Source of the DNA: Octopus vulgaris
Taxonomy: Eukaryota
Assembly (NCBI GenBank): GCA_951406725.2
Contig: OX597822.1
Span: 43,214,001-43,278,000, forward strand
Reading direction: 5' to 3'
Length of the DNA stretch: 64,000 nucleotides
The translations under genes were made by a program, and so were the position numbers. A model generated the notes under the pieces. The model was not told the origin of the DNA. It was given only the letters and a program-made list of their open reading frames with translations, and did not search any database. How positions within the stretch are numbered: position 1 is the first letter of the stretch; each line of letters begins with the position of its first letter. Below are positions 57,258 to 60,811 of the stretch, one piece after another.

Positions 57258-57309
<52 letters not shown>

Positions 57310-57349
57310 AACATTATTGGTGAATTGAAGAAATGGAGCTGAATGCAGA

Positions 57350-59113
57350 TTGAACAGAAATCGTTTTATTTCATTCTACACGTGCCACCTCAGATACCTA
57401 GATAAAATTACCAAGGACATTAATAGAACGGACGGAATCCTGGTGCAGTCCGACAAGACCAGGAACACATACAAGATGCCCATTAAGCAGTACCTAGATT
57501 TACTCGGTAAAGAGATCAAGAAAAATTATAGAAAAACCAATTGGAGTACCCTGAGGAAGGTAAACTTGGAAATTAAGGAAATAATATTTAAACACCGAAT
57601 TCAAATGAGAACTCAGCCGCTTAGCCCTAAGCAACCCAGATTTATAGTGAAGGACCATAAACCGAACTTCCACACCAACCCAGCGCTAAGACTCATATGC
57701 CCTGCTAGATCTGATATCGGGATAATCAGTAAGTACATTTTAGATAAATATATCCCTAGTTTAGTAAACAAGCTGAAGCTCAGCCTCTGGGCCAACTCCT
57801 CGCAGGTAGTGAAGTGGTTCTCTTCCATCCCCAATAAGAACCGTACTAGGTTCATTCAGTTTGATATCGCCAGCTTCTACCCCTCGATTAACCCTAGTGT
57901 GCTAAATAAGGCCCTCTGGCATGCTCACAACAAGGCTGGCCTCACCAGAGAAGAGATAGATATTTTAGTTGCCAGGAAATCGTTTATTAAGTTTGATAAT
58001 AAGTTGTGGATCCGTAAAGATACTCCCAATGAATTTGATGTGCCTATGGGTAGTTCGGATAGTGCGCAGATAGCCGATTTGGTCGGAATATATATTCTCT
58101 ACGAATTGTCCGACCAATTCCCGGAGATCGCGGGCGGCCTGTATCGTGACGATTGTCTGTTTTACCTGCAAAACACCACGAACAGAATAGTGCAGAAAAC
58201 TAAGAGCAGGTTAGCTAGGTTTTTTAATAGAATGGGCATGAGTATAGTTTTTGATAATGAACTCACCAAGGCTAATTTCCTAGACGTTACACTTAACCTT
58301 AATAGCGACTCATACTGCCCTTACCATAAGCCTTCCACTAATTTGAAGTATGTCAGTGTCTTCTCAAATCATGCCAAAACCGTAACAGACAATTTGGTTA
58401 AAAACATCTCTCTAAGATTGTCTGGCTTATCCGCCAGTGCCGATATTTTTATGCAGAAAGCGGAATTTTATAACGCCGCACTATCCAAGGCCGGTTATAG
58501 GCAGAAGGTAATTTATATTGATCCGGCCCTTCCGATGCCATCATTCGGTCATCAGGATAGGGCCGTATATAATAACATTAACATTTTAAGTAAGGACGGG
58601 AGCGCGGCGGATGCCGGGGTAGTCGCTCCCGCATTTAATTTAGCGAACAAGGATAATTATCGGTCCGGGAGGTCTTACACTAACCCAAGACCCGTTATTC
58701 ATCCGAGAATCACCCACCCGAACGCGAGAGCTGGCGTCCCGACCCATCACACTGATAGGAATAAGCATATATGGTTTGTAATCCCCTTTGGTAAGCAGAT
58801 TAGAACTAACCTCCCCCTCATGTTTAGACAAGCCATCGCCAATAACTTCCCCAGAAATTCCAAATATTACTCCACGGTTAACTCGCATAAAGTTAGGATA
58901 GCTTTCTTCAACACTAAAAACCTCGCCCAGATAATCGCCTCCCATAAAAATAGGCTACTTACTAAGACCCTATCACCTTTTTCCGGAGGCACAGCCTCTT
59001 CCGCTCCCGGTTTAATGCTCAGTAGGAATAATTATAGTAGTAATAATGATATGAGAGCCAGTACAGTGACACATAATCTCAGCTCCAGCCAGGAGTACCC
59101 ACTAGGGGTATAG
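57350..59113 (+). CDS. Penelope-like reverse transcriptase (RT core, thumb, linker); N-terminus truncated
   Basis: Motifs SDKTRNTY, KDHKPNF, RLICPARSDIG, QFDIASFYPSI, FDVPMGSSDSAQIADLVG, GLYRDD, NFLDVTLNL, PYHKP. The first ~12 codons come from the inverted repeat, so the TTG start is not genuine. Confidence 0.9.
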   Translation: MNRNRFISFYTCHLRYLDKITKDINRTDGILVQSDKTRNTYKMPIKQYLDLLGKEIKKNYRKTNWSTLRKVNLEIKEIIFKHRIQMRTQPLSPKQPRFIVKDHKPNFHTNPALRLICPARSDIGIISKYILDKYIPSLVNKLKLSLWANSSQVVKWFSSIPNKNRTRFIQFDIASFYPSINPSVLNKALWHAHNKAGLTREEIDILVARKSFIKFDNKLWIRKDTPNEFDVPMGSSDSAQIADLVGIYILYELSDQFPEIAGGLYRDDCLFYLQNTTNRIVQKTKSRLARFFNRMGMSIVFDNELTKANFLDVTLNLNSDSYCPYHKPSTNLKYVSVFSNHAKTVTDNLVKNISLRLSGLSASADIFMQKAEFYNAALSKAGYRQKVIYIDPALPMPSFGHQDRAVYNNINILSKDGSAADAGVVAPAFNLANKDNYRSGRSYTNPRPVIHPRITHPNARAGVPTHHTDRNKHIWFVIPFGKQIRTNLPLMFRQAIANNFPRNSKYYSTVNSHKVRIAFFNTKNLAQIIASHKNRLLTKTLSPFSGGTASSAPGLMLSRNNYSSNNDMRASTVTHNLSSSQEYPLGV

Positions 59114-59772
59114 TTATAAATAGGGGTGTTGTGGTTGACGGTAACAATGGGAGTAGGGTAGAGAGCCCCAATAGCATCCCCAGCATCATTTCCCGCAATA
59201 GCAGCACCACGGGCAGTAGCAATGACAGCACCCTGATAGATAGTGGAGAATCAGGGGTTATTCCTATAGTTAATAGTGACGTAGTGGAAAATAGAGTAGT
59301 AAGTGGCTGCAGGTCTCGGAACGAATATAGTGACAGGAACGCAGTTCTAATTTCAGAAACTAATCCTAGCAGAATAAGATTCACGTCGGCGAACTCCAAG
59401 ATCAAAAACGCCGTCTACCAATGCAAGGTTTACACGGACTCAGATGTCTTCACTTATGTAGGGGCCTCATCCTCAAGATTGTCTTTGCGTGTCTCCAACC
59501 ATTACGCAACTTTTCGGGACATGAACAAGCGCCAGACCACGGGACTCAGTAAGCTAATATGGCGACTGAAGGATACGAACTTAAGCTACAGGCTGGAATG
59601 GTCAATTTTGTCGGTGGCCCTCCCATTTGATAGGGGCAGAAGGCAGTGCAACCTTTGTGTCTCCGAACTCTTCCATATTTTGTTTGCCAGAGGCCGGATG
59701 GTAAACGGGCTTTTACAGTCGGCTTTTCGATGCCCCCATTGGCGGCGTTACACTTATCTGGCTTTTAAATAG
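59077..59772 (+). CDS. GIY-YIG endonuclease of the Penelope-like element, in the -1 frame relative to the RT ORF
   Basis: AVYQCKV...YVGAS...RVSNH...LSKLIWRLK...WSIL...CNLCVSE...N...CPH. The frame opens after TAA 59074-59076 and overlaps the end of the RT ORF. Confidence 0.85.
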   Translation, partial: SQLQPGVPTRGIVINRGVVVDGNNGSRVESPNSIPSIISRNSSTTGSSNDSTLIDSGESGVIPIVNSDVVENRVVSGCRSRNEYSDRNAVLISETNPSRIRFTSANSKIKNAVYQCKVYTDSDVFTYVGASSSRLSLRVSNHYATFRDMNKRQTTGLSKLIWRLKDTNLSYRLEWSILSVALPFDRGRRQCNLCVSELFHILFARGRMVNGLLQSAFRCPHWRRYTYLAFK

Positions 59773-60360
59773 CGTTTATAAATAATACCGGCACCCATAG
59801 CCCTTGGTAACAAATTCTGAAATAGCTTTTAAGATATCTACGATTAACCACTGCAAGGGGAATTACTCCTGTATGACGAACGGGGCTTGGTTTTTTCATA
59901 GCGGGGGGTTTCCTTGACAAGGCAGGCTTAGATGAACACACACACACATAAAACATAATATATATATATTTTTTTTCTGCTACCCAACGGTTCTCGCGGC
60001 AGTAGCCACTGACAGCCGAACGCTCAAACGCACACACGTACACAAAAAATGTTTTCTACCCCTACGCCAACACACACATATATAGAACAGTATACACACA
60101 CACACGTCTCTAAGTAGATTTTTTCTCGCCCCTTATAAAACATCCAATATTCCTTAAATAGTCAGAACTTTATTCTCGGTCACAAAGAACACCCACACAC
60201 CCTCACCCACATGATTGACCGATGCCTGACCCGTTAAATTCTTCAGCCACCGGTTCTCAACATACACTGATAAACAGTTTCGCCATGGGCTCTTAGGAGC
60301 ATAGTTCGATTTGTTTTTGCTCCGCCTCTGTTCTGTTTTTGTTTTTCCAACGGATTTCCT

Positions 60361-60452
60361 ATTTTCTTCCTGAAGAGAAAGACACAATATGGTCCCATTA
60401 TTCAATCGGAATTTGGTAATTTGTGCCTTTCGAAACACGTGTAGAATGAAAT
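60361..60452 (+). ncRNA. Minimal type I hammerhead ribozyme in the Penelope pseudo-LTR
   Basis: Stem I TTC/GAA (extendable); CTGAAGA 60370-60376; stem II GAAAGACACAA/TTGTGCCTTTC; GAAA 60432-60435; palindromic CACGTG; predicted cleavage after GTA at 60443. Confidence 0.85.
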
Positions 60453-60671
60453 AAAACGATTTCTGTTCAATCTGCGTTCAGCTCCATTTCTTCAATTCAC
60501 CAATAATGTTTTAATTTCAATTATCCGCACCAACGCACGGTTGCAACACCATATGGTTGTACCTCCAACCGTGCTGTTTACTGGTGTGATTTTTGCTACT
60601 AAGGTATCGGTTAAACTTTTGATTAATCTACTACAAGATTATTCATCTTTCTATTTCACATAATATATATG

Positions 60672-60720
<49 letters not shown>

Positions 60721-60731
60721 GTGTATATATA

Positions 60732-60766
<35 letters not shown>

Positions 60767-60779
60767 GTATATAAATATG

Positions 60780-60811
<32 letters not shown>

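What the first reader, a model, noticed from the sequence alone, without database searches (positions are those of the whole stretch)
57309..60511. The Penelope element's inverted 5' repeat ends on the hammerhead's palindromic stem III
Seen: 57309-57384 is the reverse complement of 60436-60511 with one mismatch. Its inner boundary is the CACGTG palindrome, two bases before the predicted cleavage site (60443), and it abuts the truncated RT ORF. Inference: the template RNA end or a template switch is set by ribozyme cleavage or palindrome pairing. Near identity of the arms suggests a young insertion.
Basis: partly seen in the sequence, partly recalled or inferred. Interest (0 to 1): 0.72.

Follow-up and report, generated by a model that had tools for sequence, protein, structure and literature searches.

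The report
Ordinary two-armed Penelope insertion
This inverted repeat is the standard two-armed shape of a young Penelope-like jumping gene, and its joint keeps the ribozyme's predicted cut site whole, so it was likely copied from uncut RNA, although a small excess of other copies that end at that site likely records occasional cutting in cells.

Summary
The 76-nt inverted repeat is real, with one CpG-type mismatch. It is the short arm of a young Hydra-like Penelope element in (TA)n. This head-to-head layout is the family norm (48 of 61 unselected insertions) and is published for PLEs.

The arm does not stop at the cut site. It runs 8 nt past it to 60436 and joins RT sequence without palindrome pairing, so its template was likely uncut.

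In a census of 124 junctions within 54 nt, none ends at 60436 and stem III is not enriched (19 vs 18.4 expected).

Two minor family-level signals remain. First, 16 arms (14 loci, 4.6 expected) end at the cut site; older subfamilies repeat this only weakly. Second, one copy joins an 18S rRNA fragment at that site on both arms. Perfect fold-backs occur on stem III, but also on a neighbouring palindrome. The scan noted cut-site excesses and U6 chimeras before, in this genome and in others.

The parts
57309..57384 (-). Short inverted arm (inverted pLTR piece), copy of 60436-60511; outer end at the family's 'short' terminus
   Evidence: 75 of 76 identical; short termini cluster at about 60493-60514
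57384..57385 (.). Head-to-head junction between the inverted arm and 5'-truncated RT sequence; 0 nt microhomology, or 2 nt with a one-base slip
   Evidence: comparison with intact copy in L023/L061
57385..59772 (+). 5'-truncated ORF (RT, N/S-rich insert, C-terminal GIY-YIG-type endonuclease by motif); about 98 N-terminal codons missing; frameshift near 59091, in-frame 3-nt gap near 57963
   Evidence: (899-codon open frame in L061); Pfam gave no passing hit, PDB sequences none
60276..60513 (+). pLTR; its start near 60267-60290 is a pile-up of inner ends, likely the RNA 5' end (inferred)
   Evidence: 8 of 96 unselected inner ends in 24 nt
60360..60453 (+). Type I hammerhead motif with long stem II; predicted cut between 60443 and 60444; cleavage untested
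60435..60442 (.). 8-nt palindrome forming stem III (predicted dimer duplex about -12 kcal/mol)
60428..60435 (.). Second 8-nt palindrome (end of stem II plus GAAA); centre of perfect fold-backs in other copies
60512..60663 (+).
57270..57308 (.). (TA)n target, left side; target-site duplication not resolvable
60664..60800 (.). (TA)n target, right side

Best explanation
This is an ordinary head-to-head insertion of a young Penelope-like retrotransposon in a TA microsatellite, likely made by two reverse-transcription events primed from the two cut target strands and likely joined where each cDNA happened to stop on uncut RNA. Shown: one arm runs from 60663 back into the RT gene (57385), the other from 60511 back to 60436; the same two outer termini recur across the family while inner ends scatter. 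Inferred: the two termini are two internal RT start sites, as shown in vitro for the anole element (PMC11167929), and joining is by end-joining with little or no microhomology. The stop on stem III is likely chance for this copy. Separately, a small class of other copies (about 1-2 arms in 100) ends at the hammerhead cut, which most likely records occasional cleavage in vivo (about 0.55).
For: 48 of 61 unselected insertions on C1 are two-armed, and 47 of the 48 have one long and one short outer terminus (read). Inner ends: 34 of 96 lie upstream of 60200, 1 of 96 at the cut, 2 of 96 in stem III. Census of young copies on C1-C17: 124 inversion junctions over 54 nt; stem III 19 vs 18.4 expected (p 0.48); 60436 0 vs 2.3. 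The window's arm spans the cut site and shares no palindrome with its partner. The layout is described for PLEs (PMC8557442 passages; PMC3846280 passages), and uncut RNA was the dominant template in vitro (PMC11167929, parts 1-2 of 4).
Against: The hammerhead region is not neutral: 16 of 124 arms end at 60443-44 (4.6 expected, p 1.5e-5; family-wise 0.001), and at least 8 loci fold back on stem III. At least five other arms end at 60436 (rows). 8 of 48 pairs end within 5 nt of each other against 0.8 by permutation, so the arms are not always independent; some may be copied from one RNA molecule or by fold-back. The two-priming model itself is not tested here.
Confidence: 0.8

Rival explanations
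1. Pairing of the stem III palindrome (cDNA self-annealing, or RT stalling in the ribozyme dimer duplex) set this copy's junction.
For: The arm ends one base short of the full palindrome; dimer duplex about -12 kcal/mol; independent perfect fold-backs on this palindrome with different flanks (L254, L255, L256, L258; imperfect L056, L229, L253, L257). Palindromic junctions are published for PLEs (PMC3846280).
Against: Pairing should give a fold-back, but the partner here is RT sequence. Stem III is not enriched (19 vs 18.4). The adjacent palindrome gives 4 perfect fold-backs in the young census against 2 imperfect ones for stem III. A stall would be expected at the 3' edge of the duplex (about 60443), not at 60436 (inference).
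Confidence: 0.1
2. Hammerhead cleavage produced the template end for this copy.
For: The junction is 8 nt from the cut; the family shows a cut-site excess.
Against: The arm contains 8 nt that lie upstream of the cut and would be on the other cleavage product.
Confidence: 0.03
3. The junction is secondary: a longer inverted arm was shortened after insertion by a deletion or repair event.
For: Long perfect palindromes are unstable (general knowledge); the copy carries small indels.
Against: The copy is under 1% diverged, and such asymmetric junctions are the family norm.
Confidence: 0.07
4. Family level: the excess of ends at 60443-44 comes from RT stalling at the folded or dimerised ribozyme, or from sequence context, and not from cleavage.
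For: The peak is slightly higher at 60443 (9) than at 60444 (7), the base just 3' of the stem III duplex. A structure-linked pile-up exists elsewhere: 21 of 124 partner starts lie at 60570-60599, at the 3' base of the tail hairpin. Older subfamilies give only 8 of 87 (p 0.06) and 8 of 43 (p 0.16) (rows tallied by eye; p). The rRNA chimera has 2 nt of microhomology across the cut.
Against: A simulated microhomology null predicts 2.2-4.5 arms, not 16. In 5 of the 9 arms at 60443 the extra base is shared with the partner. In L044 both arms stop at 60444 with no overlap. An 18S fragment joins at this site on both arms of L382.
Confidence: 0.4

Closest known systems
Endonuclease-positive PLE insertions with an adjacent inverted 5'-truncated copy and a one-sided tail (PMC8557442 Fig. 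2 legend; PMC3846280, Adineta Pen2/Pen2a)
   Same: Head-to-head inverted pLTR piece, one-sided tail, partial tandems, microhomology or palindromic junctions, hammerhead in the pLTR, N-rich insert in the ORF.
   Different: Tail is about 150 nt against 30-40 nt; the window's junction is not palindromic.
Hydra clade of PLEs (Craig et al. 2021, PMC8557442 section 11; Hydra-1_Obim in its File S1)
   Same: C-terminal endonuclease without CCHH, DKT, RW-type motif, CxxC and CxH around E and N, (TA)n targets, hammerhead.
   Different: Unit is 3.6 kb (Hydra usually under 3 kb; Hydra-1_Obim 2,507 bp, listed without pLTR); no CxCX5C linker seen; three short motif queries found nothing in the one supplement file held. 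No tree built.
Poseidon PAc of Anolis (Frangieh et al. 2024, PMC11167929)
   Same: Two fixed 3' termini defining a tail, AT-rich targets, hammerhead upstream of the RT start sites, uncut RNA as main template.
   Different: That study saw no RNA reads beginning or ending at the cut; here genomic ends show a small excess there.
U6/LINE-1 chimeras made by RtcB ligation (Moldovan et al. 2019, PMC6789731; abstract and opening seen)
   Same: L382 looks like a cellular RNA fragment joined to a retroelement RNA at a site that would carry a 5'-OH.
   Different: Donor is an internal 18S rRNA piece, the element is a PLE, it is a single event, and a template jump on 2 nt of microhomology is not excluded.

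Membership tests
EN+ Penelope-like element | Single ORF with RT followed by a GIY-YIG endonuclease | tested here: met
   899-codon frame in L061 with RT (YRDD) and GIY-YIG-type motifs read by eye; Pfam and PDB searches gave no passing hit
EN+ Penelope-like element | Partial tandems forming pLTRs | tested here: met
   L061, L078, L347, L352
EN+ Penelope-like element | Adjacent inverted 5'-truncated copy and one-sided tail | tested here: met
   48 of 61 unselected insertions; tail about 150 nt
EN+ Penelope-like element | Hammerhead motif in the pLTR | tested here: met
   Motif and stems by hand; core kept in 161 equal-length copies, first half by construction; no Rfam hit
EN+ Penelope-like element | RT groups with PLE/telomerase RTs in a tree | not tested
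   no reference sequences held
Hydra clade | DKT in place of DKG; RWK-type motif | tested here: met
   DKT present; RWL rather than RWK
Hydra clade | No CCHH; CxxC and CxH flanking conserved E and N | tested here: met
   read from the endonuclease sequence
Hydra clade | CxCX5C linker before the endonuclease | tested here: not met
   only a single cysteine in that region; so called Hydra-like, not filed as a member
Hydra clade | Generally under 3 kb | tested here: not met
   unit 3,626 nt
Hydra clade | Insertion into (TA)n | tested here: met
Type I hammerhead with palindromic helix III (PMC4209133) | Conserved core, NUH cut site, short palindromic helix III | tested here: met
   stem II changes in the oldest haplotype keep pairing (by eye)
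Type I hammerhead with palindromic helix III (PMC4209133) | Self-cleavage | not testable with these tools
   monomer fold is not the minimum-energy structure; only contigs, no raw RNA reads

The most novel reading that the evidence does not exclude
The hammerhead of this Penelope family cuts its RNA in germline cells, and the cut 3' product is itself reverse-transcribed and can be ligated to fragments of cellular RNA (here 18S rRNA), with both arms of an insertion copied from the same RNA molecule. Genomic junction maps would then be a fossil assay for in vivo activity of PLE ribozymes.
Probability: 0.5. Interest if true: 0.6.

Novelty: new member of a known kind. Interest (0 to 1): 0.3.

Why it matters
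The locus itself is ordinary. The role of PLE hammerheads is described as unclear (PMC8557442), and the one in vitro study found cleavage dispensable and no RNA ends at the cut (PMC11167929). A genomic excess of ends at the cut, plus an rRNA piece joined there, gives a cheap in vivo test. It also suggests that cleavage is a side path (about 1-2 arms in 100) and not what builds the inverted repeats. Three paper searches listed no study that maps PLE junctions against the ribozyme; the library lacks most subscription journals.

Tried and rejected
Rfam scan: no hammerhead among the matches shown, only microsatellite noise. Repeat finder swamped by (TA)n. Pfam and PDB sequence searches: nothing passing. 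The mirror-capture table was mis-indexed and was not used. The pattern, 24 misses some symmetric joins, so one search was added. Snap-back on the small hairpin 60444-60468 would give partners starting at 60469; none was seen among the cut-site arms. A fixed 150-nt offset between arms was rejected: partner starts pile at 60570-60599 whatever the arm's end. 19 dispersed matches to the 18S fragment were checked for this element at their ends: none apart from one simple-repeat hit. No U6-type joint was noticed by eye in the rows; this was not searched for directly. RNA: no RNA holder listed; contigs of four guessed-RNA runs cannot show ends, and two of them bridge the tail-ORF boundary without a skip, so a possible 5' intron is neither shown nor excluded. 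Only one supplement file of PMC8557442 was held; its consensus sequences could not be compared.

Full report
Observation. The window lies at G000:C9:43214001-43278000 of a 2.8-Gb genome; octopus is likely, from earlier notes and the microsatellite-rich sequence, and was not tested. 57309-57384 is the reverse complement of 60436-60511 with one mismatch at a CpG. The hammerhead reads core 60370-60376, a long stem II, GAAA 60432-60435, palindrome 60435-60442 and a predicted cut at 60443/60444. The arm therefore contains the cut site and 8 nt upstream of it.

The element. A partial tandem (L061) gives a 3,626-nt unit with an 899-codon open frame. The window copy lacks about 98 N-terminal codons, has a frameshift near 59091, and differs from that copy at 24 substitutions and 5 gap bases. 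Motifs fit the Hydra description in PMC8557442 (section 11 read), except the linker motif and the length, so I call it Hydra-like. One 22-nt anchor of the young subfamily matches 1,233 places. The insertion ends at 60663, followed by (TA)n.

Architecture. I took the insertions behind the first 100 rows (61 insertions on C1, 62 loci). 48 are two arms joined head to head; 47 of these have one outer end at 60654-60663 and one at 60493-60514. The other 13 showed one arm, a tandem or an incomplete partner. This matches the published inverted copy plus one-sided tail (PMC8557442 and PMC3846280, passages seen) and the two internal RT start sites of the anole element (PMC11167929, parts 1-2 of 4 read). 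Of the 96 inner ends, typed as numbers, 34 lie upstream of 60200, 8 at 60267-60290, 7 at 60565-60630, 20 within the 94-nt hammerhead, 2 in stem III and 1 at the cut.

This junction. In the intact copy the RT sequence next to 57385 shares no base with the arm's end, or 2 nt with a one-base slip. It is neither a fold-back nor a cleaved end.

Census near the ribozyme. Searches listed young-subfamily arms that leave the element between 60470 and 60417. I kept contigs C1-C17 only, because one search left 36 later rows unlisted. I did not fetch rows that by eye were small indels or broke outside the interval, nor three junction rows at about 60418-60424. One search classified 209 rows: 47 small indels were dropped, leaving 124 inversion junctions (154 non-indel ends) in 54 positions. 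Stem III: 19 against 18.4 expected. Position 60436: 0; the window's own arm is excluded by its mismatch in the anchor. Cut site 60443-44: 16 against 4.6 (p 1.5e-5; any 2-nt window, p 0.001). These come from 14 loci (p 2e-4). The second base of that window was allowed after seeing the data. A simulated microhomology null predicts 2.2-4.5 arms there. Position 60428, the edge of the neighbouring palindrome, has 12 arms, 8 of them from four perfect fold-backs, and microhomology explains much of that.

Replication. In older subfamilies, tallied by eye from printed rows, 8 of 87 ends over 41 positions fall at the cut (first 100 of 264 rows; p 0.06; L382 left out) and 8 of 43 over 16 positions on later contigs (p 0.16). 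A script check on the 60 stored loci agreed to within a base. The direction is the same but the support is weak.

Palindromes. Independent fold-backs with different flanks are centred on stem III (four clean, four imperfect) and on the adjacent palindrome (six examined). Palindromes seed symmetric joints in general, as PMC3846280 noted; stem III is not special. 8 of 48 arm pairs end within 5 nt of each other (0.8 by permutation), and several of these joints have no native palindrome. So both arms may often be copied from one RNA molecule, or one from the other.

A chimera. In L382 both arms leave the element at 60443/60444 and continue into the same roughly 270-nt sequence, which is part of 18S rRNA in the sense orientation, with 2 nt shared across the cut. 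Ligation of an rRNA fragment to the 5'-OH cleavage product, as for U6/L1 (PMC6789731, abstract and opening seen), is one reading; a template jump is another. It is a single event.

Verdict. The feature is a real, young, ordinary PLE insertion whose junction likely fell on stem III by chance and came from uncut RNA. The ribozyme does not set junctions in general. A minor cut-site class (about 1-2 arms in 100) is probably real and more likely reflects cleavage than stalling (about 0.55 against 0.3, remainder chance). PMC4209133 (part 1 of 4 and passages) describes the palindromic helix III and low activity; the retrozyme preprint (part 1 of 5) did not bear on junctions. Earlier scan notes report the same pattern on other DNA; they are unchecked and not counted as support.

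Noticed in passing
L382 (G000:C1:121057012-121060087), about 1333-2162: Two-armed insertion in which both arms join an 18S rRNA fragment at the hammerhead cut site.
   Followed up: yes
window 60527-60599: Stable hairpin in the tail; long-arm 5' ends pile up at its 3' base (21 of 124 partner starts at 60570-60599), likely an RT stall site.
   Followed up: partly
window 60267-60290: Pile-up of inner ends, likely the RNA start of the pLTR promoter.
   Followed up: partly
window about 58500-59400: N/S/R-rich low-complexity stretches in frame between RT and endonuclease, recalling the N-rich inserts of Adineta Penelopes.
   Followed up: no
window 60604-60663 and the following L061 sequence: Possible GT..AG intron upstream of the ORF start; the long 3' terminus would fall inside it.
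   Followed up: partly
L350 (G000:C1:111721900-111728200): The same rearranged junction (60352 to 57628) occurs twice in one insertion, suggesting copying from an already rearranged locus or a duplication.
   Followed up: no
L352-L353 (G000:C1:119513700-119530900): Tandem array of three full units plus a partial one.
   Followed up: no
G000:C20 about 23.96-24.08 Mb; L407-L426: rDNA array with an 18-kb period and about 20 dispersed, partly decayed rDNA fragments.
   Followed up: partly
window 18671, 34401, 47742, 51116 (+): Further hammerhead-like core matches from a loose regex, unrelated in sequence to this family; unverified.
   Followed up: no
L034, L035, L041, L043, L230 and rows: Recurrent 2-nt deletion in stem III that leaves a shorter palindrome; may be a subfamily variant.
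   Followed up: no
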